21,956 nucleotides of DNA from Candidatus Sericytochromatia bacterium (GCA_036676495.1 JAKFCT010000026.1:1-21956); one strand, 5' to 3'. Numbered from the stretch's first letter, positions 17 through 19,039 are shown. Made by a program: numbers and translations. Notes: generated by a model from the letters alone, not told the origin.

Positions 17-1267
17 ATGAAGTTCACCAAGAAGCTCGACCTCAGCGTCCTAGGCTGGTTCGCGCTGCTCTCCTGCGTCCTGGTCGTCCTCCTCGGCTTC
101 ATCGCCTTCAAGGAGGAGAACCGGGAGTGGAAGAACGTCCAGAAGCAGTACTACGCCGTGGAGCAGAAGGTCGCCGCCGCGCAGGGCCGCGAAGTCCCTC
201 CCCAGAAGCTCGCGCTCAAGCAGGTCATGGTCAAGGACCTCGGTGCGGTTGATCGCTGCATCACCTGCCACGTGGGCATCGACGACCCCAACATGACCAA
301 GGAAGCGGTCGTCGAGGCCGGCGGAAACTACAAGGTCTTCGCCCAGCACCCCGACTTCGACACCTTCATGGGCAAGCACCCGGTCGACAAGTTCTCCTGC
401 ACCACCTGCCACCAGGGTCAGGGACTCGCCACCACCGAGGCCGACGCCCACGGCTTCGTCCACAAGTGGGACTTCCCCATGCTGGGCGACAACCACAAGG
501 ACGAGATGACCAAGTATGCGCAGGCCTCCTGCGCCACCTGCCACTCGAACCCCAACGACTGGGAGAAGATCGGCGCCAACAAGCTCGCCGAGGGCCGCAA
601 GATCGTCAACGACTACGGCTGCGTCTCCTGCCACAAGATCGAGGGCAAGGGCGGCATCATCGGCCCCGACCTCACCACCATCGGCGACAAGCTCCCCAGC
701 CAGTTCCACGCGGCCCTGGCCTTCGAGCCCATCAAGGAAGCGATCAAGGAAGGGAAGTTCCAGGGCGTCTCCAAGGATCACCAGATCCACGACGACGCCG
801 CCACCTGGCATGACTTCCACTTCATGAACCCCCAGGCCGTCTCCCCCGGCTCCACGATGCCCGCCTACGGCTTCACCAAGGAGCAGCGCGAGGCCCTGAT
901 CACCTGGATCTTCGCCCAGAAGAAGCGGAACGTTCCGGCTTCCTACCTGATCGAGGGTGCCTCCGGTGGGGGCGCCACCCCGGCCAAGGCCGCGGCGGAA
1001 CCCGCCAAGGTCGCGGCGGCTAGCACCAAGGGCCTGGATCTCTTCGGAGCCAAGACCTGCGGCGCCTGCCACGCCCTGACCGGCGTCCCCGGCGCGGTCG
1101 GCGCCGTCGGCCCCAGCCTCGACGGCATCGGCAAGACCCGCGACGTCGCGTTCCTGACCAAGTGGCTCAAGGACCCCGCGGCCGTCAAGCCCGGCACCAC
1201 GATGCCCAACCTGGGTCTCACGGACGACGAGTCCAAGGCGATCGCCGAGTTCCTGGTTAGCAAGTAG
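17..1267 (+). CDS. Membrane-anchored multiheme (5 x CxxCH) cytochrome c, probably the c subunit of a cytochrome bc-type complex
   Basis: N-terminal hydrophobic helix (WFALLSCVLVVLLGFIAF); heme motifs CITCH, CTTCH, CATCH, CVSCH, CGACH; the last two lie in class-I cytochrome c domains with GPxL and distal Met ligands (PGSTMP, PGTTMP); strong GC3 codon bias. Confidence 0.9.
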   Translation: MKFTKKLDLSVLGWFALLSCVLVVLLGFIAFKEENREWKNVQKQYYAVEQKVAAAQGREVPPQKLALKQVMVKDLGAVDRCITCHVGIDDPNMTKEAVVEAGGNYKVFAQHPDFDTFMGKHPVDKFSCTTCHQGQGLATTEADAHGFVHKWDFPMLGDNHKDEMTKYAQASCATCHSNPNDWEKIGANKLAEGRKIVNDYGCVSCHKIEGKGGIIGPDLTTIGDKLPSQFHAALAFEPIKEAIKEGKFQGVSKDHQIHDDAATWHDFHFMNPQAVSPGSTMPAYGFTKEQREALITWIFAQKKRNVPASYLIEGASGGGATPAKAAAEPAKVAAASTKGLDLFGAKTCGACHALTGVPGAVGAVGPSLDGIGKTRDVAFLTKWLKDPAAVKPGTTMPNLGLTDDESKAIAEFLVSK

Positions 1268-3379: not shown

Positions 3380-3426
3380 CGTGGGTCCCCGCCTGAAACA
3401 AACGGTTCCGGAGCGCGCCGAGGAGG

Positions 3427-3432
3427 TATAAT
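3427..3432 (+). promoter_or_regulatory. Consensus -10 box (TATAAT) upstream of queF
   Basis: Perfect TATAAT in high-GC DNA about 80 bp before the queF start; no good -35. Confidence 0.5.
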
Positions 3433-3509
3433 GGCCTTTCGGCATCCGTCGCGCCGGCGACGCTGAAGCCCCCCCCCACAGCAACACCCCCTTGGAATGG
3501 AGATCCGCG

Positions 3510-3905
3510 ATGGACGGCATTACGCAACTCGGTCGCCCCACCCACGTTCCCACCTCCCCGGAGGAGGCTCGGCTAGAGGCATTCCCCAACCCGAACCCGG
3601 CCCGCAGCTACACGATCGAGTTCACCTGCCCGGAGTTCACCGCCTTCTGCCCCATCACCCACCAGCCCGACTTCGCCGAGATCCGCATCTCCTACGTGCC
3701 GGACGAGCGCTGCGTGGAGCTCAAGAGCCTCAAGCTCTACCTGGGCTCCTTCCGCAACCAGGGCATCTTCCATGAGGCCGTCACCAACCGGATCCTCGAC
3801 GATCTGGTCGCCGTCCTGGCCCCCCGCCAGATGACCGTCGTCGGCGACTTCTCCGTCCGCGGCGGCATCAAGACCGTCGTGACGGCCACCTATACCAAGC
3901 CCTAA
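3510..3905 (+). CDS. queF: NADPH-dependent 7-cyano-7-deazaguanine (preQ0) reductase, type I
   Basis: PEFTAFCPITHQPDFA with catalytic Cys/Asp; QueF motif ELKSLKLYL; FHE; VRGGI; SD GGAG before ATG 3510. Confidence 0.95.
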   Translation: MDGITQLGRPTHVPTSPEEARLEAFPNPNPARSYTIEFTCPEFTAFCPITHQPDFAEIRISYVPDERCVELKSLKLYLGSFRNQGIFHEAVTNRILDDLVAVLAPRQMTVVGDFSVRGGIKTVVTATYTKP

Positions 3906-3927
3906 ACGCCTGCGGCGCGACTCCGCG

Positions 3928-3958
3928 TAGCCCCGGTGCCAAATCGGCGCCGGGGCTA
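3928..3958 (+). terminator. Hairpin downstream of queF
   Basis: TAGCCCCGGTGCC-AAATC-GGCGCCGGGGCTA, 13-bp stem with one G-U pair. Confidence 0.5.
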
Positions 3959-4081
3959 GGTTATGCCCGTCGCTTCCCGCGCGTAACCTGACAGGGTCGC
4001 CCTTTCGGGACTTGCTCAGTTTGCCGAGCGGCTGGGTACAATAACCTTGCAAGCAATGGTGCTAGCAAGGAGGGGCGCTCC

Positions 4082-5323
4082 ATGGGCAAGATCGGATTGG
4101 TCCTTTGCGGCGGGGTCGCCAAAGGGGCCTATGAAGCAGGTGTTCTCAAGGCCCTGGCGGAGCAGCAGATCTACCCCGACGTGATCGTCGGCATTTCCGC
4201 CGGCGCCATCAACGGGGCCTTTGCCGCCCAGATGCTCGCCACCGGACAGTTCACCGCCTCCGTCGTGGAGCGCGAGCTCCTCTACCACTGGCGCGAAACC
4301 GTCGACGCCCATCACCTCTACCACGGCTTCGATCGCAAGGACCTCCCGCCCCTCGAGCAAAAGAGCCTGAAGTCCCTCTTCCAGCGGCTCGGCATCGACC
4401 CGCTGCGCCGCCAGTACCGCCCCCGCATCGGCTTCGACTCGCTCTTCGCGTTCGAGCAACTCGTCCGGGGCGATTTCATCTCGCTCATCAACCACGACTT
4501 CATCCGGGGCATGCTCGAGTCCTACCTGCACTTCCCCCCGGTGGTCAAGCGTGACGTCACCCTCTCGGTGGTCACCTCCGACCTCAAGGGCAGCACCACC
4601 TTCACCGAGGACATGAAGCTCAACACCGAGTACTCGTCCTTCGACGAGTACCGCTGGCATGCCGGCATCACCGAGGACGACTGGGAGGAGATGAGCCCCC
4701 GGATGCAGGACATGATCCTCGCGTCGAGCTCCTTTCCCTTCATCTTCCCCCCGCTCGAGACCTCGGAACCTGACGGCGGCCATTCGAGCTTCCTCGTCGA
4801 CGGCGGCTTGATGGATTCGGCCCCCATCGGCCGCGCCATCAAGCTGGACCCTGAAATCGACACCATCCTCGTGGTCTCCGGAGTGACGGTAGTGGACCCC
4901 CCGGAATCCGATCTCCAGACGCTGCATCAGGTGCTCGGCCGAGTCTTCTCGCTGCTGGCGGGACGCTTCCTGATCCAGAACTACCACAAGGTACTCCAGT
5001 GCAACGACCGGATCACGCGCCTCGACGCCATGGTCAAGCGCGGGAAGAACGGCAGCGTCCTGCACAACGCGCATAACGAGGACCTCTCGCGGCTCGCGGG
5101 CTTCAAGGGGCTCGACGACTACCTGAGCCGCCGCGTCGTCCGCCTGGTCCCGATCTTCCCGAACCCCGGCCTTCCCGGCGACGTCTTCGACGGCTTCTTC
5201 CAGCCCGAGTTGCGCGCTCAGTACATCGATCAGGGCTACATGGACGCCATGGCCGCGGTCGGCCGCGAGGCCCGGATCACGGCCAGCGAGCCCATCGCCT
5301 CCCCCTTCCAAAGCCTGGTCTGA
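4082..5323 (+). CDS. Patatin-like phospholipase
   Basis: Oxyanion loop LCGGVAKGAYEAG, nucleophile elbow GISAG, ASSSFP, catalytic Asp in DGG; SD AAGGAGG. Confidence 0.92.
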   Translation: MGKIGLVLCGGVAKGAYEAGVLKALAEQQIYPDVIVGISAGAINGAFAAQMLATGQFTASVVERELLYHWRETVDAHHLYHGFDRKDLPPLEQKSLKSLFQRLGIDPLRRQYRPRIGFDSLFAFEQLVRGDFISLINHDFIRGMLESYLHFPPVVKRDVTLSVVTSDLKGSTTFTEDMKLNTEYSSFDEYRWHAGITEDDWEEMSPRMQDMILASSSFPFIFPPLETSEPDGGHSSFLVDGGLMDSAPIGRAIKLDPEIDTILVVSGVTVVDPPESDLQTLHQVLGRVFSLLAGRFLIQNYHKVLQCNDRITRLDAMVKRGKNGSVLHNAHNEDLSRLAGFKGLDDYLSRRVVRLVPIFPNPGLPGDVFDGFFQPELRAQYIDQGYMDAMAAVGREARITASEPIASPFQSLV

Positions 5324-5324
5324 G

Positions 5325-6473
5325 ATGCTCGACCGCAACCACCTGCTTGCGGCCCTCGAATCCCGTGCTGCGGACTTCAACCGCTTCGACCGTAACCGGC
5401 ACGAGGCGATCGCCCGCCTCCAAGAGGCGCTTTCCAGTCTGGAAGCCCAGGGCCGGCTCGCCCTCGAGGCGAGCCTCGGCGACGCCGCGGCTCCCGGCGC
5501 TTTGCCCACCCCCGAACTGGACCGCGGCCTCGTCCATCCCTTTTCCGAGACCTTCCAGCACCACCCCGATGCCCTCTCCTGGGCCCAGCGCCAGCTCGAA
5601 GGCCTGACGAGCTTCGCGGCCGACGGCAGCCAGATCGAGCCCGACAACCGCTATGACGTCCCGGTGGCCCTCATCCAGGTGGGAAGCTTCGAGAACCGGC
5701 ATCAGAGCGAAGGCTCCTACCGCAAGGAGACCGAACTCCAGGTCCTCACTCCCGAGGAGCTCGACGGCGAAGGTCCCGTCAAACGCCTGGTCGACCTGGC
5801 ACGCTTCGAGCGTGAGCTCTCCGCGCTCATCCGCTTCATGACCGAAGGCGCGCCCGGGACGGGACGTCGAAAGCTGGTCTTCATGGACGGCTCGCTCATC
5901 GTCTCCTTTGCCGAGAAGCAGGGCAAGGACCCGCATGCCTCGCGCTACGTCTCGACGATCCTCGCGCTCCTCGAGGCCTCCGAGGCGACCCGCACCCCGC
6001 TCGTCGCCTATGTCGACGGCTCCCGCGCCAAGGATCTCGCCCGGATGGCGGGCCTCGCCTCCGGAGTGGAGGGCGGGACGGTCAGCGACGCCATGCTGCT
6101 GGAGGGAAGGTTGCGCTGGGGCGATCGCACCGCGGCCTTCCGCTGTGCCCGCGAGGGGATCCTGGACTCCTACGGCCGCCACCGTCGGGACATCGCCTTC
6201 ACGTACCTGCAGGTGCGCGAGGGCCACCCACCGGCCCGCCTGGAATTTCCGGCCTGGATGCTGGACGGGATCGACGGCGTCGTCGACGCCGTGCGCGCCG
6301 ACGCGATCGCCGGGGGAGGGTACCCGTACACCCTGGCAGCGGCCGATGCCACGGCGGTGCTCACGACCGGCGATCGCGACCGCTTCCAGCGCACCCTCGA
6401 GGACTTCCTGGAGCGCAAGGAGATCCCCCGCGTCTTCTCGAACAAGGCGCTCTCCAAGGTACGCCGGCGCTGA
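5325..6473 (+). CDS. nurA: NurA-family nuclease
   Basis: Acidic motifs AADGSQ and FMDGSL, AYVDGS, RLEFPAW and C-terminal GYPYTL..A, in the order expected for NurA; HerA gene nearby. Confidence 0.85.
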   Translation: MLDRNHLLAALESRAADFNRFDRNRHEAIARLQEALSSLEAQGRLALEASLGDAAAPGALPTPELDRGLVHPFSETFQHHPDALSWAQRQLEGLTSFAADGSQIEPDNRYDVPVALIQVGSFENRHQSEGSYRKETELQVLTPEELDGEGPVKRLVDLARFERELSALIRFMTEGAPGTGRRKLVFMDGSLIVSFAEKQGKDPHASRYVSTILALLEASEATRTPLVAYVDGSRAKDLARMAGLASGVEGGTVSDAMLLEGRLRWGDRTAAFRCAREGILDSYGRHRRDIAFTYLQVREGHPPARLEFPAWMLDGIDGVVDAVRADAIAGGGYPYTLAAADATAVLTTGDRDRFQRTLEDFLERKEIPRVFSNKALSKVRRR

Positions 6474-6574
6474 GAGGGCCGGCACCGCCGCGATCCGGCG
6501 GCGATCGCGCTAAGGTATACTAGGAATCAGCCGTTGCCCGCGCTGAGCGCCCATCCGCCAGAAAGGAACCCGAC

Positions 6575-7267
6575 TTGAAGCACTCCATCCAGTTTCAACC
6601 CGCCTACTCTCTGGCCGTCATCCAACTCGACGCCGGAGAGCGCGTCCGCGCCGAAGCCGGCGCCATGGTCTCCATGTCCGGAACCATCGAGCTGGAAGCC
6701 AAGTTCAATACCGGTGGCAAGGGCTTGATGGGCATGCTCAAGCGGACCGTGCTCGGGGGAGAGAGCCTCTTCCTCTCGACGCTGACGGCCAAGTCGGGCC
6801 CTGGCGAGGTGACCCTTGCGCCGTCAATGCCCGGAGACATCCTTCCCCTGACGCTCAGCGGGGAGACCCTGCTGACCGAGCGGGGAGCGTTCCTGGCGGC
6901 GGCCGACGGGGTCGAGATGGACGCCCAGTTCGCCGGCCTGAGGGGCTTGATGGGGGGAGAAGGCCTCTCCTACCTGCGCTTCTCCGGCCATGGCCTGCTG
7001 CTGCTCGCCGCCTTCGGCGGGATCTACGCCCGGGAGCTGGCCCCCGGCGAACGCTACATCGTCGATTCCAGCCATCTCGTGGCCTTCGAGGAGCGGGTGA
7101 GCTACCTGGTCCGCAAGGCCGCGTCCGGCTGGATCTCCAGCTTCACCAGCGGAGAGGGCCTCGTCATGGAGTTCACCGGTCCGGGCCGCCTCTGGCTCCA
7201 GACCCGCAACCCCCGGGCGAACGCGGAATGGCTGAGCGCCTTCCTGCCCAAGCCCAGCGCCGAGTAA
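6575..7267 (+). CDS. TIGR00266 / AIM24 family protein
   Basis: AEAGAMVSM, GGESLF, LAPSMPGDI, GGEGL, YIVDSSHLVAF, SGEGLVMEFTGPGRLWLQTRN; TTG start after SD AAAGGA. Confidence 0.92.
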   Translation: MKHSIQFQPAYSLAVIQLDAGERVRAEAGAMVSMSGTIELEAKFNTGGKGLMGMLKRTVLGGESLFLSTLTAKSGPGEVTLAPSMPGDILPLTLSGETLLTERGAFLAAADGVEMDAQFAGLRGLMGGEGLSYLRFSGHGLLLLAAFGGIYARELAPGERYIVDSSHLVAFEERVSYLVRKAASGWISSFTSGEGLVMEFTGPGRLWLQTRNPRANAEWLSAFLPKPSAE

Positions 7268-7271
7268 GCCC

Positions 7272-7847
7272 ATGCGCCTCGGAAAGGTCGTTTCGTCGCG
7301 CTCCCACGTCGACGTCCTCTGCCAGATCGACAAGCCCCACGAGTCGGAGCACCCGCCGGGGCCGGCCGATACCACCTTCGGGCGCTTCGTCAGGGTAGGC
7401 GAGACGGCCGTGGGGATTCTCTACGACTCGCAACTGCAGAACCCCGATTTCGGCAACTTCGGCCCCCGGCTCGCCAGCAGTCCGGCCCAGGTCGGGGTCT
7501 TCACCCCGGACTTCTACGACGAGCAGGCCACCCTCGTGAGCGTGCTCCTGCTGGGCGCGCTGGACGGCGCCGGAGGCCAGCAAGGCGTGCCGCATGAGGT
7601 CGTGCCCATCCACGCGGAGGTGCGGATCATGGACGAGCGCGAGATCGTGAGGTTCCATCACGATCCGGCCTCCTCCGTCCAGGTGCGCTACGTGCCGCTG
7701 GTGCTGTCCCACGCCGGCCCCGTGGCGGTCCCGCTCCTGACGGGGGTGCTGGACCGTCTGGCCGGCCTTTTCCCGCAGGATCGCCCCCGGATCGAGGTCC
7801 TGCGCAAGGCGCTGCTTTGGCAATCCACCATGACCGCGATCCGCTGA
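7272..7847 (+). CDS. Stand-alone HAS-barrel-like protein associated with NurA/HerA
   Basis: N-terminal LGKVV...FGRFVRV...VGILYD beta pattern parallels the HAS barrel of HerA (IGTVKG...IGEFVYY...LGKITE); lies 10 bp upstream of HerA. Confidence 0.7.
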   Translation: MRLGKVVSSRSHVDVLCQIDKPHESEHPPGPADTTFGRFVRVGETAVGILYDSQLQNPDFGNFGPRLASSPAQVGVFTPDFYDEQATLVSVLLLGALDGAGGQQGVPHEVVPIHAEVRIMDEREIVRFHHDPASSVQVRYVPLVLSHAGPVAVPLLTGVLDRLAGLFPQDRPRIEVLRKALLWQSTMTAIR

Positions 7848-7857
7848 GGAAGATGAG

Positions 7858-9507
7858 ATGGATCACCTGATCGGAACGGTCAAGGGCCCCGGCGAGTCCT
7901 CGCATGAGTACCGCTTCATCACGACGGACAACCACCAGAGCAAGATCGGAGAGTTCGTCTACTACCCCGTGCAAATCGACGGGGAGATCTGCCCGATCCT
8001 GGGGAAGATCACCGAGCGGAAGCTCGTCCGCTCCCTGCCGGACGCCTTCATGGCGGATCCCTCCATCTCGCCCCAGGACGTGGCCGCGCTCTTGGGTGGA
8101 GAGCTGGGCGAGGCGGAGCTCTTCGAGGTGACGGTGGCGATCGCCGGCCGCTTCGATCCCAAGCTCAAGGGCTTCCTGAACCCGCGCATCCCGCCCGATC
8201 CCGGCGCCCGGGTCTACGTCGCCTCCAACACCTTCCTCACCCAGGTCCTCAGCCCCCGGGCGCAAGACCAGGTCGGCTCGGCCCACCTCGGCTCGCTGCT
8301 GACCCGCGCGCCCGGCGAGGTGCCGATCATCCTCGACGTGAAGAACCTGGTCTCCACGCACCTGGCCATCCTGGCCTCCACGGGCTCGGGCAAGTCCTAC
8401 ACCGCGGGCGTGCTCGTCGAGGAGCTCATGAAGCCCTACAACCGAGCAGCGGTGCTGATCGTCGACCCGCACGGGGAGTACGGCACCCTCAACGCCCTGG
8501 AGTCGCACCCGGCCTTCGCGGAAGGCGGCTACCGGCCCCGGGTCAAGGTGATCCCGCACGATCGCGTCAAGATCCGCATCTCCTCGCTCACCGAGGCCGA
8601 CATCAAGGCCCTCTTGCCGATGATGAGCGAGAAGATGATGGCCTTCATCGGCAAGGCCTTCGACCGCTTGAAGCGGCGGGACACCCACCTCTGGGGCATC
8701 CGCGACCTCCTGGCCGCGCTCGACTCGCTGCGCGCCGAAGGCGCCGAGGACGACCCTGCCTCCAACGCGAGCACCATCGAGGGCCTGCGCTGGCGCCTCG
8801 AGGACCGCTTCGCCCGCTCGAGCATCTTCGATGACAAAGACCATATCCCCTTGCCCGAGCTCTTCACCCCGGGCCAGGTCACCGTCTTGCAGCTGAACGA
8901 GATCGATCAGGTCGAGCAGCAGATCATCGTCGCCACGGTCGCCCGACGGATCAACCGCGCGCGCATGGATACCAAGACCGGCAAGGCGCTCGACGGCGAA
9001 TCCTTCATTCCCTACCCGGTCTTCATGCTGTTGGAGGAGGCGCACCGCTTCGCTCCCGCGGGAGCCTCGGTCGTGAGCACCCCCATCCTCAAGACCATCC
9101 TCGCCGAAGGACGCAAGTTCGGGGTGGGAGTGGGCCTGATCACCCAGCGTCCCGGCAAGCTCGACGCCGACGTGCTCTCCCAGTGCATGACCCAGTTCAT
9201 CATGCGGATCGTGAACCCCATCGACCAGCAGACCATCGCCCAGAGCGTCGAGGGAGCCGGCCGGGACCTGCTCGACGAGTTGCCCGCCCTCACCAAGGGG
9301 CAAGTGATCGTCTCGGGAGTGGCCGTGAACACGCCGGTCCTCTGCCAGGTTCGCGCACGGCTCACCGAGCACGGGGGAGAGACGATCGATGCGCCGGCCG
9401 AGTGGCTCGATTACTTCGGCCTCTCGCAGGTGAGCGCCCGGGAGCAGGACTCCGCCATCCTGGCCTCCCCCGCCAAGGCGGAGCGCTACAACGGCTATTC
9501 GATCTGA
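7858..9507 (+). CDS. herA: HerA/FtsK-superfamily ATPase (DUF87 type) with N-terminal HAS barrel
   Basis: HLAILASTGSGKS (Walker A), VDPHGEY, LLEEAHRF (Walker B), EGRKFG (arginine finger), ITQRP. Confidence 0.92.
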   Translation: MDHLIGTVKGPGESSHEYRFITTDNHQSKIGEFVYYPVQIDGEICPILGKITERKLVRSLPDAFMADPSISPQDVAALLGGELGEAELFEVTVAIAGRFDPKLKGFLNPRIPPDPGARVYVASNTFLTQVLSPRAQDQVGSAHLGSLLTRAPGEVPIILDVKNLVSTHLAILASTGSGKSYTAGVLVEELMKPYNRAAVLIVDPHGEYGTLNALESHPAFAEGGYRPRVKVIPHDRVKIRISSLTEADIKALLPMMSEKMMAFIGKAFDRLKRRDTHLWGIRDLLAALDSLRAEGAEDDPASNASTIEGLRWRLEDRFARSSIFDDKDHIPLPELFTPGQVTVLQLNEIDQVEQQIIVATVARRINRARMDTKTGKALDGESFIPYPVFMLLEEAHRFAPAGASVVSTPILKTILAEGRKFGVGVGLITQRPGKLDADVLSQCMTQFIMRIVNPIDQQTIAQSVEGAGRDLLDELPALTKGQVIVSGVAVNTPVLCQVRARLTEHGGETIDAPAEWLDYFGLSQVSAREQDSAILASPAKAERYNGYSI

Positions 9508-9605
9508 GGGCGCAGCCGCTTGCGCCTCCCCGCGCCATCCCGTCACCCACTTTCCAGCGTCACGCTAGCATCATGTAGACAAAGAGAGACCTGAGGGCCA
9601 TCACG

Positions 9606-10328
9606 TTGAACCGCGAGATTTTCGTATTCTGGACCGGGGACAATCCCCTTTCGGAGAACCGCCAGCGCGCGCTGGAGAGCATGAAGAACACGGGACTCGC
9701 TCCGGTCCTCGTCACCGGCCGGAACCTGCATGAGTTCGTCCCCGAGGACCGCCTCCATCCCGCCTACCCGCACCTCAACTTGGCTCACCGGGCGGATTAC
9801 TTGCGGTGCTACTTCATGAAGCACCACGGCGGCGGCTACTCCGATCTCAAGACCAACGAGGCCTCCTGGCTGGCCGCCTATGACGCGCTCGAACGCGATC
9901 CCGAGGCATGGGCCTGCGGCTACCGCGAGGTCTCCCCGCGCGGCGTCGCCGATATCTACCTCTCGTCGCGGCAACGGAAGGAGGGCCTCGCCGCGGCCAT
10001 CCGGGCCCAGCTGCAATGGCGCTACCTGCAATGGCACTACAAGTCGCTGATTGGGACGTGCGCCTTCATTTTCAAGGAGGGCACGCCCCTGGTCGATGCA
10101 TGGTGGGAAGCCCTCAATCAGCGCCTGGACACCTTGCATCCGGAGCTCGAGCGGCACCCCGCGAAGCACCCGAAGGAGCTGCCCGGCGTGATCTACGACG
10201 GGGAAAAGTCGCGCTATCCCGTGCCCTGGACCTACCTGCTCGGAGATATCCTGCACCCGCTGATCCACCAGTACCGCACGCATATCCACGCGGATCTTCC
10301 GACCCCCGATTTCTCGAACTACGCCTAG
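9606..10328 (+). CDS. GT32 / capsular polysaccharide synthesis-like glycosyltransferase
   Basis: IFVFWTG near the N-terminus and ADYLRCYFMKHHGGGYSD match the SDxxR...GGxYxD core; TTG start uncertain. Confidence 0.7.
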   Translation: MNREIFVFWTGDNPLSENRQRALESMKNTGLAPVLVTGRNLHEFVPEDRLHPAYPHLNLAHRADYLRCYFMKHHGGGYSDLKTNEASWLAAYDALERDPEAWACGYREVSPRGVADIYLSSRQRKEGLAAAIRAQLQWRYLQWHYKSLIGTCAFIFKEGTPLVDAWWEALNQRLDTLHPELERHPAKHPKELPGVIYDGEKSRYPVPWTYLLGDILHPLIHQYRTHIHADLPTPDFSNYA

Positions 10329-10458
10329 GCCTCGCCGGTTTTAACGAACTCCAAACAAAGACTTCATCGGCCCTTGCGAATCTTCTTACGCAGACGAGCG
10401 GATAACTCGTCAGGTGGGCCACGCGGCCTCGACACGACATTTCCCACCAGGAGGACGT

Positions 10459-16398: not shown

Positions 16399-16420
16399 CC
16401 CAAGCATGCGTTGGCTGGGG

Positions 16421-17449
16421 TCAGTTCCGGTATTCGAGCGTCTGAGGCAGCTGTCGAGGCACCACCCGGCTGAGAACGGTCAGGTTCTCGTCCATCCCGA
16501 AGCTCGTCCTCACGAAGTAGAGGGGACGATGCTTGGACTCGTTGTAGATTCTTCCGATGTACTCGCCGATGATGCCCAGGGCCATCAGCTGAGCCCCCCC
16601 GAGGAAGGAGATCATCACCATCAAGGAGGGATAGCCCGCGACCGCATTTCCGTAGAGCAAGGTGACGATGACCCGATAACCCGCATAGAGGATCGCCAGC
16701 AGGGCGATCAAGAAACCGGCGTAGCTCGCCACTTGAAGGGGGACGATGCTGAACGACGTGATCCCCTCGATCGCGAAGTTCCAGAGGCGCCAGTAGTTGA
16801 AGCTGCTTTGGCCGGCAAAACGCGGCTCCCGGTGATAATGGATGCTGGTTTGCTTGAAGCCGACCCAGCTAAAAAGCCCCTTCATGAAGCGATGATGCTC
16901 CCGCACCCCCCGCAGCGCCTCGACGACCTGGCGCGACATCAGGCGAAAGTCGCCCGTGTCCGGGGGAATGGCCGTAGGCGATATCCGCTGGATCACGCGG
17001 TAGAAAAGCAGCGCGGTCAGCTTCTTGGGGGCGGATTCGCCCTCGCGCGTCAGCCGGGTGGCGTAGACGACGTCGTAACCTTCCCGCCACTTCGCGAGCA
17101 AGTCGTGGATCAACTCGGGGGGATCCTGGAGATCGGCGTCGATAGGCACCACCACCTCGCCCAGGGCGTAATCCAGGCCGGCCGTCAACGCAATCTCTTT
17201 GCCGAAGTTCCTCGAGAGGTCGATGACCTTGATCCGGTCGTCTTGCTCATGCAGGGCGACGAGCCGGTCCAGGGTATCGTCCCGGCTTCCGTCATTGACG
17301 CAAACGATCTCGTAGGGACAGCCAGTCCCCTCCAGCACGTGCGTCATGCGCTCGTAAAAAGGCGTGATGTTGGCCCCCTCATTATGCATGGGGACCACGA
17401 CCGAGATGAGAGGTGCAGGGGATCTACCCAAGGGTCGCCTTCCTTCCAA
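16421..17449 (-). CDS. GT2 polyprenol-phosphate glycosyltransferase, GtrB/YkoT-like
   Basis: ISVVVPMHNE, VNDGSRD, SRNFGKE, IDADLQDPP, GDFRLMSR and two C-terminal TM helices; start uncertain. Confidence 0.92.
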   Translation of the reverse strand: MEGRRPLGRSPAPLISVVVPMHNEGANITPFYERMTHVLEGTGCPYEIVCVNDGSRDDTLDRLVALHEQDDRIKVIDLSRNFGKEIALTAGLDYALGEVVVPIDADLQDPPELIHDLLAKWREGYDVVYATRLTREGESAPKKLTALLFYRVIQRISPTAIPPDTGDFRLMSRQVVEALRGVREHHRFMKGLFSWVGFKQTSIHYHREPRFAGQSSFNYWRLWNFAIEGITSFSIVPLQVASYAGFLIALLAILYAGYRVIVTLLYGNAVAGYPSLMVMISFLGGAQLMALGIIGEYIGRIYNESKHRPLYFVRTSFGMDENLTVLSRVVPRQLPQTLEYRN

Positions 17450-17467
17450 GGACTCGATGAAAGCCGA

Positions 17468-19039
17468 TCAACGACGGAGCTGGTAAACCCTCAGGTCCGG
17501 CCGCTCCTCCAGGGTGATCTCGGGGTAGCGGCCCTTCAAGGAAGGGACTTCCCCATGCCAGGAGAGGTAGTAATCGATCGGGTGACGCTCCAGCTCCGCG
17601 CGCAAAGCCTGATCGTCGGAGCCGAGCTTGGGAACTCCGTAGAACTTCGAGCCCGTCTTGAACGCGATGTAGAGGACTTCGCCATAACGGTCGGAGGCGA
17701 GGTTCCCGGTGATTCCGTACTTCTTCTCGAGGGCCTCGCCCACGTCATGCAGGTCCTTGTTCAGATGGACCGACTGAACCAAGTCCGTCAGCGGAATGGT
17801 GAGGAAACTGAGCACGAAGAGCGAGACGACGGCGACGCGGCGGCCGCCGGACAGGCCGTCGCGAACCCACGATCGAATCAGCCCCAGGCCGGTGACCAGC
17901 AGGAGCAGATGGAGCGGCCAGAAGTAGCGCATTTCGACATGCAAGATGGCATATCCCGCGGCATAAATCCCGAACGTCGCCAGCAGGAAGGCCGCATCAA
18001 GCCTATCCGGCGAAGGCCGTCGCAGGCGCCAGGCAAAGGCCACCAGGAGCAAGAAGGCCAGGGGAGGCAGCAAGATGAAGACGATCCAGTAGAAGTTCTC
18101 GGCGAACAACCAAAGTTGATGCTTGAAACTGCGCCACGACTCCAGCGCGCTCCACTGGCTCACCGGAAGCAGCGACGGATCTTCCCAGGCGCTCACGGCG
18201 CCAGGGTTGGGGGGCGGCAACAGGCCCTCGGTAAGGATTGCCTGCCCCTTGGAATCCGGTCCCACCACCCCGTGATTGTACGCACCGGCGGTGCTGGTCG
18301 TGAAGCCGCCGTACTTCTGGCTGAGCGCCATGATCCAGGGCCCGGACACCATCGCGAAGATCAGCATGCCGACGGCGTAGTGCCTGAGGAGCCCCGGCCA
18401 TGCTTGCCTTCCGGAACGAAGCCCATGGAAGACGGTCGCCAGGATGAAATGCGCGAGAAAGAACGGGAAGGCAAACCCCTTGGCAAGGTACGCGATGCCC
18501 GCCGCCAGACCCGCCAGCATCCCAGAGAATCGCCTCTCGGGATAGCGGGGATCGAAGATCACGGCGAAGTAGGCCACGAAGGCCGCGGTGTTCAGCAGAT
18601 CCGGCGTCGTGGTGATGAAGGCATAGGCGAGCATCGTCGGGACAAGCAGGACGGCCAGCAAACGCCGCCAACCGGATTCGAGGCCGAGCCGGCCCGCGAA
18701 CCAAAGCGTCAGCGCATACACCCCCAGCCCCGTCGCAAGCAGAACCACTTTCGCCGCCACATGGGAGTCGATCCCGAGCGCGAGCAGGGGGACGATCAAC
18801 CACGAGAACAACGGGCCCCAGAGCCCGTTCACGGCGTTCGAAAAGTCCCCGATCAGGTACTTCTCAGCAATGGTCAGGTAAGACGTTCCATCGGGGTTCA
18901 GCTGGTAACGGTACAGAGGAAAAAGCAGCGCCCCAAGCACGAGATAGAGTGCGCCACCTAATGAAAACCACCCTTTATCCGCGAGCCTGAAGGCCGTCAG
19001 GGAGGTGGAATGACCGGAACGAAGCATGGATGACCTCAT
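17468..19039 (-). CDS. Polytopic GT-C fold glycosyltransferase (ArnT/PMT-like)
   Basis: About 11-13 hydrophobic segments; first-loop NPDGTSY acidic motif, TPDLL, AYLAK, EMRYF; soluble C-terminal domain; 18 bp upstream of the GT2 gene. Confidence 0.7.
   Translation of the reverse strand: MRSSMLRSGHSTSLTAFRLADKGWFSLGGALYLVLGALLFPLYRYQLNPDGTSYLTIAEKYLIGDFSNAVNGLWGPLFSWLIVPLLALGIDSHVAAKVVLLATGLGVYALTLWFAGRLGLESGWRRLLAVLLVPTMLAYAFITTTPDLLNTAAFVAYFAVIFDPRYPERRFSGMLAGLAAGIAYLAKGFAFPFFLAHFILATVFHGLRSGRQAWPGLLRHYAVGMLIFAMVSGPWIMALSQKYGGFTTSTAGAYNHGVVGPDSKGQAILTEGLLPPPNPGAVSAWEDPSLLPVSQWSALESWRSFKHQLWLFAENFYWIVFILLPPLAFLLLVAFAWRLRRPSPDRLDAAFLLATFGIYAAGYAILHVEMRYFWPLHLLLLVTGLGLIRSWVRDGLSGGRRVAVVSLFVLSFLTIPLTDLVQSVHLNKDLHDVGEALEKKYGITGNLASDRYGEVLYIAFKTGSKFYGVPKLGSDDQALRAELERHPIDYYLSWHGEVPSLKGRYPEITLEERPDLRVYQLRR

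What the first reader, a model, noticed from the sequence alone, without database searches (positions are those of the whole stretch)
4082..9507. Patatin - NurA - AIM24 - HAS barrel - HerA cluster: candidate uncharacterised DNA-end processing or anti-phage module
Seen: five same-strand genes with gaps of 1, 101, 4 and 10 bp. Patatin, NurA and HerA keep their main catalytic motifs, and no Mre11/Rad50 (SbcCD) genes are in the window. Known: NurA-HerA is a nuclease-translocase pair for DNA end resection, usually beside mre11/rad50 in archaea. HerA ATPases also form defence systems with effectors (Sir2-HerA, DUF4297-HerA), and patatin is a membrane-lytic effector in CBASS (CapV). Inference: a DNA-end-sensing HerA/NurA machine could be coupled to a phospholipase output, with HAS and AIM24 as accessory subunits. 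Against this, codon usage looks native and there are no mobility genes, so a repair locus with chance neighbours remains plausible.
Basis: partly seen in the sequence, partly recalled or inferred. Interest (0 to 1): 0.78.

Follow-up and report, generated by a model that had tools for sequence, protein, structure and literature searches.

The report
NurA-HerA module with extra barrel subunit
The five genes are real, but only three of them (the NurA nuclease, the HerA DNA motor and a small unstudied protein that copies HerA's docking barrel) travel together across bacteria, while the lipase and the AIM24 gene are local neighbours.

Summary
Five same-strand genes lie at 4082-9507 with gaps of 1, 101, 4 and 10 bp: patatin, NurA, AIM24, a 191-aa protein and HerA, all with intact motifs. 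The "HAS barrel" guess holds: the 191-aa protein belongs to Pfam DUF8166, and its model matches HerA's N-terminal barrel (Z 11).

The five-gene "system" does not hold.
- **AIM24:** it sits in the cluster only in the window's own genus. The two sister genera that carry the cluster have no AIM24 match at all.
- **Patatin:** it is a backbone gene of this Sericytochromatia order. Its ortholog keeps the same chromosomal neighbourhood in genomes that lack NurA, DUF8166 and HerA.
- **Conserved trio NurA + DUF8166 + HerA:**
  - In 201 Cyanobacteriota genomes, DUF8166 and this HerA clade occur in exactly the same 15, and NurA in 14 of those.
  - In 121 genomes of a Blastocatellia class, all 66 HerA genomes carry DUF8166.
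  - The three genes may be clustered (here), paired as NurA-DUF8166 or DUF8166-HerA, or scattered.

Best reading: a chromosomal NurA-HerA DNA-end-processing machine with an uncharacterised third subunit. A patatin-coupled defence system is unlikely. Earlier notes of this scan reached the same trio in Chloroflexota.

The parts
4082..5323 (+). Patatin-like phospholipase (413 aa). It is a resident backbone gene and probably the first gene of the transcription unit. It is not part of the conserved module.
   Evidence: PF01734 at 1.1e-22. Motifs GGVAKG, GISAG and DGG are present. Orthologues occur in 37 of 41 class genomes. Synteny is kept without the trio. A 40% paralogue lies at G000:C27.
5325..6473 (+). 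NurA nuclease (382 aa), a core part of the module.
   Evidence: PF09376 at 3.4e-33. It is the only NurA match in the genome. D100, D188 and 37 other columns are invariant in 23 homologues. Full-length orthologues occur in 14 of the 15 HerA/DUF8166 genomes of the phylum sample.
6575..7267 (+). AIM24/TIGR00266 family protein (230 aa), a genus-specific insertion between nurA and the barrel gene.
   Evidence: PF01987 at 2.5e-70 and TIGR00266 at 194.9 bits. The 91% orthologues occur only in genus g1; genera g2 and g4 give 0 of 4. In g4 nurA directly abuts the barrel gene. In g2 the same junction holds an opposite-strand DUF4382 gene.
7272..7847 (+). DUF8166 (PF26500): a free-standing HAS-barrel protein with a C-terminal helical hairpin (191 aa). 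Proposed third subunit of the module.
   Evidence: All 37 homologues carry precomputed PF26500, which the Atlas names DUF8166. The AF2 model has pLDDT 83.5. Foldseek top hits are all HerA chains, best E 5.8e-5. VIA gives Z 11.0, rmsd 2.6 over 96 residues against 9c1n_R residues 1-102. Co-occurrence and adjacency.
7858..9507 (+). HerA hexameric translocase ATPase (549 aa) with its own N-terminal barrel. Core part of the module.
   Evidence: PF01935 at 3e-42. NF040819 at 7.1e-63, but 213 bits against a cut-off of 970. The nearest solved sequence is T. kodakarensis HerA, 1.2e-48. It is the only match in the genome. The N-terminal strand pattern of its model parallels that of DUF8166.

Best explanation
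The cluster is a chromosomal NurA-HerA DNA-end-processing module with a third, uncharacterised subunit. It lies downstream of an unrelated backbone patatin gene, and in this genus a passenger AIM24 gene interrupts it.

**Shown**
- NurA, DUF8166 and HerA are each intact.
- They co-occur across Cyanobacteriota, a Blastocatellia class and Ktedonobacteria, whether clustered, paired or scattered.
- DUF8166 has the fold of HerA's N-terminal HAS barrel, the domain that docks NurA in solved complexes.

**Inferred**
- A HerA hexamer translocates duplex DNA and a NurA dimer digests it, as in Deinococcus and archaea.
- DUF8166 docks on NurA through a HerA-like barrel surface. It would act as an adaptor or gatekeeper between nuclease and motor.
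- The most likely cellular role is resection or processing of broken chromosomal DNA ends.
- Patatin and AIM24 act independently. At most they share a transcript with the module.
For: **Gene order in relatives**
- Pat-NurA-DUF8166-HerA with no insert in L090 and L091.
- The same order with an opposite-strand DUF4382 gene in L003 and L004.
- AIM24 is present only in the window, L001 and L002.

**Sericytochromatia sample, 41 genomes**
- DUF8166 in 8 and HerA orthologues in the same 8.
- NurA orthologues in 7 of those 8.

**Phylum sample, 201 genomes**
- DUF8166 in 15 and HerA (E <= 1e-60) in exactly the same 15, spread over 10 families.
- Full-length NurA (E <= 1e-111) in 14 of those 15. No other genome scores better than 2.4e-39.
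- In 5 of 5 complete cyanobacterial genomes checked, the three genes lie far apart on the chromosome.

**Blastocatellia-class sample, 121 genomes**
- DUF8166 in 68 genomes. HerA in 66, all of them among the 68. NurA in 60, all of them among the 68.
- NurA lies directly upstream of DUF8166 on the same strand in 21 of those 60.
- HerA is never within 65 kb of DUF8166.

**Ktedonobacteria**
- DUF8166 lies directly upstream of herA in 5 of 5 genomes.
- nurA stands alone in 41 of 41 loci.

**Structure**
- VIA gives Z 11.0 (rmsd 2.6, 96 aligned) and Z 10.1 (rmsd 3.2, 107 aligned) to HerA N-termini.
- The HAS barrel of D. radiodurans HerA mediates NurA binding (PMC9960219, passages read).

**Predicted NurA + DUF8166 complex**
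- Weak support: median score 0.51 over three runs (0.59, 0.51, 0.50); the best of 3 controls was 0.16.
- 58 of 80 solved complexes and 2 of 110 mismatched pairs reached the mark. At 0.60 or under, only 7 of those 80 did, as did both passing mismatches.
- The runs agree in at least 85% of contacts, and the partner's pLDDT is at least 77.
- My own alignments were used, and likeness to solved HerA-NurA complexes may drive the score.

**HerA type**
- It is nearest to repair-type HerA (1.2e-48 and 6.2e-34). Defence HerAs score 3e-24 to 3e-12.

**Patatin as a backbone gene:**

**Native composition:**
Against: - The complex prediction is only a weak pass and may reflect memory of HerA-NurA structures.
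- One same-genus genome (G001, 97% complete) keeps DUF8166-HerA but has no NurA match anywhere.
- 8 of 68 DUF8166 genomes in the Blastocatellia-class sample lack a NurA match at 1e-15. DUF8166 is therefore tied more tightly to HerA than to NurA.
- Patatin abuts nurA closely. The gap is 1 bp here and about 1-40 bp in the relatives, and this holds in all 6 other family-f1 genomes that carry the cluster.
- Four earlier, unchecked notes of this scan report a patatin beside NurA/HerA clusters in Chloroflexota.
- The trio is patchy (15 of 201 genomes). That also fits an accessory or defence role.
- In some Acidobacteriota, herA neighbours a variable slot holding NACHT, reverse-transcriptase, AbiEii-like and HNH genes.
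- Related genomes are not independent, so the co-occurrence counts overstate the number of events.
- There are no expression or biochemical data.
Confidence: 0.6

Rival explanations
1. The trio NurA-DUF8166-HerA, without patatin, is mainly an anti-foreign-DNA system. It would load on free ends of phage or plasmid DNA and destroy them, with DUF8166 as a sensor or safety catch.
For: - The trio is patchy in Cyanobacteriota: 15 of 201 genomes.
- It was not found in 3 of 3 genomes of a sister genus.
- In Acidobacteriota loci the slot upstream of herA holds NACHT-NNH2, NNH2-RT, AbiEii-like and HNH genes.
- A 2026 review states that bacterial NurA-HerA complexes mainly degrade exogenous viral DNA (PMC13748450, passage read). 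That passage shows no primary evidence.
- HerA gives generic matches to PADLOC HerA models, best 7.1e-46.
Against: - The three genes are scattered over the chromosome in most carriers. Defence systems are usually compact.
- herA holds a fixed place beside truA in the Acidobacteriota loci examined: 4 of 4.
- The flanks in K. racemifer are housekeeping genes.
- The HerA sequence is nearer to repair HerA than to defence HerAs. The NCBIfam anti-phage HerA models score 84-87 bits against cut-offs of 800-850.
- No PADLOC hit for NurA or DUF8166.
Confidence: 0.17
2. One reading: a HerA/NurA DNA-end sensor coupled to the patatin phospholipase as a membrane-lytic output, with the barrel protein and AIM24 as accessory subunits.
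For: - The patatin stop and the nurA start are 1 bp apart, and catalytic motifs are intact.
- Patatin precedes nurA, or the place nurA left in G001, in all 7 family-f1 genomes with the cluster.
- Four earlier unchecked notes describe a patatin next to NurA/HerA clusters in Chloroflexota.
- HerA-effector defence systems exist, as shown by Sir2-HerA and DUF4297-HerA structures.
Against: - The patatin orthologue occurs in 37 of 41 class genomes, against 8 of 41 for HerA.
- It stays beside the same backbone genes in 5 of 5 relatives that lack the trio. It is collinear in 4 and inverted 7.3 kb away in 1. The slot is then filled by motAB or lgt.
- My patatin HMM hit 0 of 152 NurA, DUF8166 or HerA loci outside family f1, against 6 of 6 positive controls. 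The HMM is built from a narrow subfamily and could miss distant patatins.
- AIM24 is confined to one genus.
- No cyclase or other CBASS-type partner is in the window.
- PADLOC phospholipase hits are partial, best 2.5e-6 over 44 residues.
Confidence: 0.08
3. DUF8166 is a decoy or inhibitor, not an adaptor. By mimicking HerA's barrel it sequesters NurA, or caps HerA, and so keeps the nuclease silent until needed.
For: - It has the same fold as the NurA-docking domain but no ATPase domain.
- HerA keeps its own barrel, so a second barrel is not needed simply to build the complex.
- The NurA + DUF8166 complex prediction is a weak pass: 0.51 against a best control of 0.16; 58 of 80 solved complexes and 2 of 110 mismatched pairs reached the mark.
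- nurA-DUF8166 pairs occur without herA nearby in 21 of 60 genomes.
Against: - DUF8166 persists with HerA where NurA is gone (G001).
- It tracks HerA more exactly than NurA: 66 of 66 against 60 of 68.
- Nothing computed here separates adaptor from inhibitor.
Confidence: 0.1

Closest known systems
Bacterial NurA-HerA end-resection complex of Deinococcus radiodurans (PMC9960219; PDB 7wrw/7wrx)
   Same: A NurA nuclease plus a HerA hexameric ATPase in a bacterium, without linked mre11/rad50. The HerA HAS barrel is the NurA-docking surface (passages read). The DUF8166 model aligns to this HerA's residues 13-143 with Z 8.1, rmsd 2.8 over 95 residues.
   Different: - The D. radiodurans system is a two-gene operon with no free-standing barrel protein, as far as the passages I read say.
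- The D. radiodurans HerA sequence is not among the phmmer hits of the window HerA at E <= 0.001, so the two HerA clades are distant.
- Here a third gene, DUF8166, always accompanies HerA.
Archaeal HerA-NurA (Thermococcus kodakarensis 9x1l/9x1m; Saccharolobus solfataricus 4d2i)
   Same: These are the nearest solved HerA sequences (1.2e-48 and 6.2e-34). The best NCBIfam model is the archaeal-type helicase_HerA (7.1e-63). The NurA DGS motifs are kept.
   Different: - There is no mre11-rad50 linkage.
- The score lies far below the equivalog cut-off (213 against 970 bits).
- The genes are often unlinked in carriers.
- There is an extra DUF8166 partner.
HerA-effector anti-phage systems (Sir2-HerA, also called Nezha; DUF4297-HerA; PDB 8sub, 8j4u, 8wld, 8xav, 9c1n)
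   Same: A HerA-family ATPase whose HAS-barrel side carries the partner protein. These HerA N-termini are the top structural matches of DUF8166.
   Different: - No Sir2 or DUF4297 domain is in the window.
- HerA is less similar to these chains (3e-24 to 1e-16) than to repair HerA.
- The anti-phage HerA NCBIfam models score 84-87 bits against cut-offs of 800-850.
CBASS patatin effector CapV
   Same: A patatin-fold phospholipase with the Ser-Asp dyad motifs.
   Different: - No cyclase or signal-generating partner is present.
- PADLOC phospholipase-effector models match only short pieces, best 2.5e-6.
- The gene is a near-universal backbone gene of its class.

Membership tests
NurA-HerA DNA-end-processing complex | NurA-domain nuclease with conserved acidic catalytic motifs | tested here: met
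   PF09376 at 115.6 bits against a cut-off of 21. DGS at residues 100 and 188. D100 and D188 are invariant in 23 homologues.
NurA-HerA DNA-end-processing complex | HerA with an N-terminal HAS barrel and a RecA-like ATPase carrying Walker A Lys and Walker B acidic residues | tested here: met
   PF01935 at 145.7 bits against a cut-off of 23.2. G176, G178, K179, S180, E393 and E394 are invariant in 20 homologues. The N-terminal strands of the model have block pLDDT of about 68-81; the model as a whole is poor at 59.8.
NurA-HerA DNA-end-processing complex | NCBIfam equivalog score for repair HerA (NF040819) | tested here: not met
   213 bits against a cut-off of 970. This is a related clade, not the curated equivalog.
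NurA-HerA DNA-end-processing complex | Physical NurA dimer-HerA hexamer assembly with ATP-driven resection | not testable with these tools
   Needs biochemistry. Only NurA + DUF8166 was modelled.
NurA-HerA DNA-end-processing complex | Linkage to mre11/rad50 (the thermophilic archaeal form) | tested here: not met
   No such domain in the window ORFs scanned. An sbcD match lies on another contig.
DUF8166 (PF26500) | Match to the Pfam model | tested here: inconclusive
   The model is missing from the local Pfam copy. All 37 homologues, including a 97% identical one, carry precomputed PF26500. The best Atlas clusters are DUF8166 at score 0.96.
HerA-effector defence systems (Sir2-HerA, DUF4297-HerA) | Sir2 or DUF4297 effector gene adjacent to herA | tested here: not met
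   No such domain in the five genes or their flanks. PADLOC gives no hit for NurA, AIM24 or DUF8166.
HerA-effector defence systems (Sir2-HerA, DUF4297-HerA) | HerA of the anti-phage equivalog type | tested here: not met
   NF042943 at 87.1 bits against a cut-off of 800. NF042944 at 84.4 bits against 850.
CBASS with patatin effector | CD-NTase cyclase next to the patatin effector | tested here: not met
   No cyclase domain among the window ORFs scanned. PADLOC phospholipase hits are weak and partial.
AIM24 / TIGR00266 | Score above the curated cut-offs | tested here: met
   PF01987 at 236.8 bits against 25.7. TIGR00266 at 194.9 bits against 96.6.

The most novel reading that the evidence does not exclude
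DUF8166 is an obligatory third subunit of a widespread NurA-HerA clade. The clade spans Cyanobacteriota (including Sericytochromatia and Vampirovibrionia-type lineages), Acidobacteriota and Chloroflexota, with a homologue labelled Promethearchaeota. DUF8166 would be a free-standing copy of HerA's docking barrel that physically couples or gates the nuclease on the motor. If so, the accepted two-protein model of HerA-NurA resection is incomplete for this clade.
Probability: 0.45. Interest if true: 0.6.

Novelty: new variant of a known kind. Interest (0 to 1): 0.45.

Why it matters
NurA-HerA is the textbook archaeal end-resection machine. Its bacterial relatives have been studied biochemically in only two species, according to PMC13748450 (passages read).

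A small barrel-only protein that tracks HerA almost perfectly through three phyla, even where the genes are megabases apart, points to a missing subunit or regulator. Cultured strains carry the pair, for example Ktedonobacter racemifer DSM 44963 and several Dictyobacter species. A direct pull-down or cryo-EM test is therefore feasible.

The result also removes a tempting false lead: a lipase-armed HerA defence system.

No paper containing "DUF8166" was found in the searched library.

Tried and rejected
- **RNA evidence for co-transcription:** no RNA holder was listed for window 4000-9600.
- **Promoter and terminator scan of 3400-10400:** 0 promoter-like sites and 1 weak terminator-like site inside the patatin gene. 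This is no more than the shuffles give, so it is uninformative.
- **Wider locus searches**
  - The search for related loci with the NurA protein alone returned only one close relative.
I used the single protein P0030 instead.
  - The Promethearchaeota-labelled DUF8166 homologue P0212 was found in neither genome contigs nor metagenome contigs. The archaeal gene context stays unknown.
- **PF26500** cannot be searched locally.
- **BLASTP of DUF8166 against HerA of the window:** no significant similarity, best E 0.42. The relation is visible only in structure.
- **Relaxed evolution of DUF8166 in the NurA-less relative:** rejected. Its distance ratio (L002 against L001) is about 2.3, against 2.0 for HerA (from the identities).
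- **Remnants of the trio:** HMMs for NurA, DUF8166 and HerA found none in the five trio-less backbone loci. No NurA remnant was found in L002 at E <= 1.
- **The full HerA model** is poor (pLDDT 59.8). I used it only for the N-terminal strand pattern.
- **phmmer of NurA against PDB sequences** gave no meaningful hit.

Full report
**1. What is in the sequence**

Five + strand ORFs occupy 4082-9507. The gaps between them are 1, 101, 4 and 10 bp.

| Gene | Coordinates | Family evidence |
|---|---|---|
| Patatin | 4082-5323 | PF01734, 1.1e-22 |
| NurA | 5325-6473 | PF09376, 3.4e-33 |
| AIM24 | 6575-7267 | PF01987, 2.5e-70; TIGR00266 194.9 bits, cut-off 96.6 |
| 191-aa protein | 7272-7847 | No hit in the local Pfam copy |
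| HerA | 7858-9507 | PF01935, 3e-42 |

- The catalytic motifs are present. They fall in columns that are invariant across homologues.
- GC3 of the five genes (0.87-0.93) matches the flanking genes.
- No Mre11/Rad50 or mobility domain was found among the window ORFs scanned.
- The genome holds one NurA and one HerA match. An sbcD match and two recJ matches lie on other contigs.
- Titles of the closest loci place the window in Candidatus Sericytochromatia.

**2. The fourth gene**

- All 37 homologues found in the large protein collection carry precomputed PF26500. The Atlas names this family DUF8166. The local Pfam copy lacks the model.
- An AF2 model built on 18 sequences has pLDDT 83.5 and pTM 0.81. 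It shows an N-terminal beta barrel followed by a helical hairpin.
- Foldseek's best PDB matches are all HerA chains, best E 5.8e-5.
- VIA-align places model residues 1-125 on 9c1n_R residues 1-102 (Z 11.0, rmsd 2.6, 96 aligned). It places residues 1-167 on 8wld_A residues 12-150 (Z 10.1, rmsd 3.2, 107 aligned). F1-ATPase N-terminal barrels follow at Z of about 8-8.7.
- Sequence similarity to the window's own HerA is nil (E 0.42). HerA's N-terminus nevertheless shows the same order of strands and helices, so HerA keeps its own barrel.
- A profile search of 1.84 billion representatives found 342 family members at E <= 0.001. Those listed are mostly stand-alone proteins of about 180-260 aa.

**3. 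AIM24 and patatin are neighbours, not parts of the module**

*Gene order in relatives of the same family*

| Group | Loci | Gene order |
|---|---|---|
| Genus g4 | L090, L091 | Pat-NurA-DUF8166-HerA, no insert |
| Genus g2 | L003, L004 | The same, with an opposite-strand DUF4382 gene between nurA and DUF8166 |
| Window's genus | window, L001 | AIM24 sits at that junction |
| Window's genus | L002 | Pat-AIM24-DUF8166-HerA, no nurA |

- The same-genus genome G001 holds the L002 arrangement and is 97% complete. It has no NurA match anywhere.

*AIM24*
- Close orthologues (91%) occur only in genus g1.
- The 4 genomes of g2 and g4 have no AIM24 match at E <= 1e-10.

*Patatin*
- Orthologues occur in 37 of 41 class genomes. 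HerA orthologues occur in only 8 of the 41, with a distant HerA homologue (36-40% identity) in one more.
- Five relatives without the trio were examined (L105-L109). In all five the 53-56% patatin orthologue sits near the same backbone genes as in the window: a 125-aa zinc-ribbon-like gene, a 502-aa gene, an HD-domain gene and an M17 peptidase.
- It is collinear in 4 of the 5. In L108 it is inverted and 7.3 kb away.
- The slot after patatin then holds motAB (L105) or an unknown gene plus lgt (L106).
- No remnants of the trio remain in those loci.
- A patatin HMM hit 6 of 6 positive-control loci and 0 of 152 NurA, DUF8166 or HerA loci from other lineages. The HMM comes from a narrow subfamily and might miss distant patatins.

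**4. The conserved unit is NurA + DUF8166 + HerA**

*Sericytochromatia sample, 41 genomes*
- DUF8166 in 8 and HerA orthologues in the same 8.
- NurA orthologues in 7 of them.

*Cyanobacteriota sample, 201 genomes at least 90% complete*
- DUF8166 in 15 and HerA (E <= 1e-60) in exactly those 15, across 10 families.
- Full-length NurA (E <= 1e-111) in 14 of the 15. The next best match in any other genome is 2.4e-39 and partial.
- In 5 of 5 complete genomes checked, the three genes lie hundreds of kilobases to megabases apart.

*Class of a Blastocatellia genome, 121 genomes (recounted)*
- DUF8166 in 68. HerA in 66, all within the 68. NurA in 60, all within the 68.
- nurA lies directly upstream of DUF8166 on the same strand in 21 of the 60, with at most 1,020 bp between matched segments. 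In one more genome the distance is 3.3 kb.
- herA is never nearer than 65 kb to DUF8166.
- None of the 76 non-Sericytochromatia herA loci contains a DUF8166 match.
- truA follows herA in the 4 loci examined.

*Ktedonobacteria*
- nurA stands alone within 10 kb either side in 41 of 41 loci.
- In 5 of 5 genomes DUF8166 lies directly upstream of herA. These include K. racemifer DSM 44963 and three named Dictyobacter species.
- In K. racemifer the flanks are housekeeping genes.

DUF8166 is therefore the gene that is linked to nurA in some lineages, to herA in others, and to both here.

*Caveat:* related genomes are not independent, so these counts overstate the number of events.

*HerA tree.* In a FastTree of HerA, the 8 Sericytochromatia sequences plus one Nitrospinota-labelled MAG separate from 69 Acidobacteriota-type sequences at a starred branch. 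Within the family the tree follows the genera. This fits vertical descent in the family and shows no sign of recent transfer.

**5. Likely mechanism**

*Established for relatives*
- HerA hexamers translocate duplex DNA.
- A NurA dimer docked on the HAS-barrel face digests it. For D. radiodurans this comes from PMC9960219 (passages read); the archaeal complexes appear in the search listing.

*Shown here*
- The window HerA is closest in sequence to repair-type archaeal HerA: T. kodakarensis 1.2e-48 and S. solfataricus 6.2e-34.
- It is less similar to defence HerAs (3e-24 to 3e-12), and D. radiodurans HerA is not hit at all.

*Inferred*
- DUF8166 copies the nuclease-docking barrel and binds NurA and/or stacks on HerA. 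It would act as adaptor or gatekeeper.
- A NurA + DUF8166 complex prediction gave weak support:
  - Median score 0.51 over three runs (0.59, 0.51, 0.50); the best of 3 controls was 0.16.
  - The mark was reached by 58 of 80 solved complexes and 2 of 110 mismatched pairs. At 0.60 or under it was reached by only 7 of those 80 and by both passing mismatches.
  - The runs agree in at least 85% of contacts, and the partner's pLDDT is at least 77.
  - My own alignments were used. Likeness to solved HerA-NurA complexes may explain the pass.
- Against a strictly NurA-centred role: G001 keeps DUF8166-HerA without NurA, and DUF8166 tracks HerA more exactly than it tracks NurA.

**6. Repair or defence?**

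*For a housekeeping DNA-processing role*
- The genes are scattered in most carriers.
- herA holds a fixed position beside truA in Acidobacteriota.
- Base composition is native.
- The HerA is of the repair type.
- No PADLOC system is recognised.

*For a defence-like role*
- Distribution is patchy.
- A variable slot with NACHT, RT, AbiEii-like and HNH genes lies upstream of herA in some Acidobacteriota.
- A review states that bacterial NurA-HerA degrades viral DNA (PMC13748450, passage read).

My odds: about 0.6 for end processing or repair with DUF8166 as a subunit, 0.17 for a trio-based anti-foreign-DNA role, and 0.08 for the patatin-coupled model.

**7. Earlier notes of this scan**
- I read these after my own survey. 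They describe the same trio in Chloroflexota genomes and also call the flanking genes passengers.
- Four of them mention a patatin gene beside the cluster. I could not test this. It is the main reason I keep a non-trivial probability for some patatin link.

**8. Literature**
- No paper in the searched library contains "DUF8166".
- The only paper holding patatin, HerA and NurA together is an unrelated review.
- A search for stand-alone HAS-barrel partners found nothing relevant.

**Verdict**
- The finding is a real cluster, but its proposed logic is mostly wrong.
- It is a new variant of a known kind: NurA-HerA with an uncharacterised barrel-only partner.
- The partner is already noted elsewhere in this scan and is not in print in the libraries I searched.

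Noticed in passing
window 16406-18961 (+) and 16421-17449 (-): The 851-aa + strand ORF is probably a spurious antisense frame. Its GC3 is 0.62 against about 0.9 elsewhere, its translation is R/Q/E/D/H-rich, and it has no Pfam hit. The opposite strand encodes a family-2 glycosyltransferase (PF00535, 8.1e-34).
   Followed up: partly
L007 3816-7409; L010 3804-6512; L024 6598-7959: The slot just upstream of herA in Acidobacteriota loci is variable and holds defence-like genes: a 1197-aa NNH2-reverse-transcriptase fusion, a NACHT-NNH2-HEAT protein, an AbiEii-like protein and an HNH protein. It may be an integration hotspot.
   Followed up: no
L014, L021, L026, L031, L033, L035, L038-L040, L045, L050, L067: MAGs labelled Heliobacteriaceae or Heliomicrobium (Bacillota) carry HerA sequences that nest among Blastocatellia sequences all over the tree. 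The labels probably do not reflect the organisms.
   Followed up: no
L002 about 6545-6675: In the relative that lacks nurA, the patatin-AIM24 spacer contains a direct repeat of about 24 nt, present twice. It may be a footprint of the deletion or a small repeat element.
   Followed up: no
G000:C27:70950-72143 (-): A second, full-length patatin paralogue (40% identity) lies elsewhere in the genome. The family-f1 genomes that carry the trio have two copies, and most other genomes of the class have one.
   Followed up: partly
G030:C1:2848336-2850519; G040:C277:7454-9574: Some Sericytochromatia genomes carry three tandem AIM24 paralogues, 40-45% identical to the window's AIM24.
   Followed up: no
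window 17-1267: A multi-haem c-type cytochrome (several cytochrome c, c3 and c7-type domains and an MtrC-like domain) opens the window. It is conserved in L001 and L002.
   Followed up: no
P0212: A DUF8166 homologue is recorded from a MAG labelled Promethearchaeota (Asgard archaea). Its gene context could not be fetched.
   Followed up: partly
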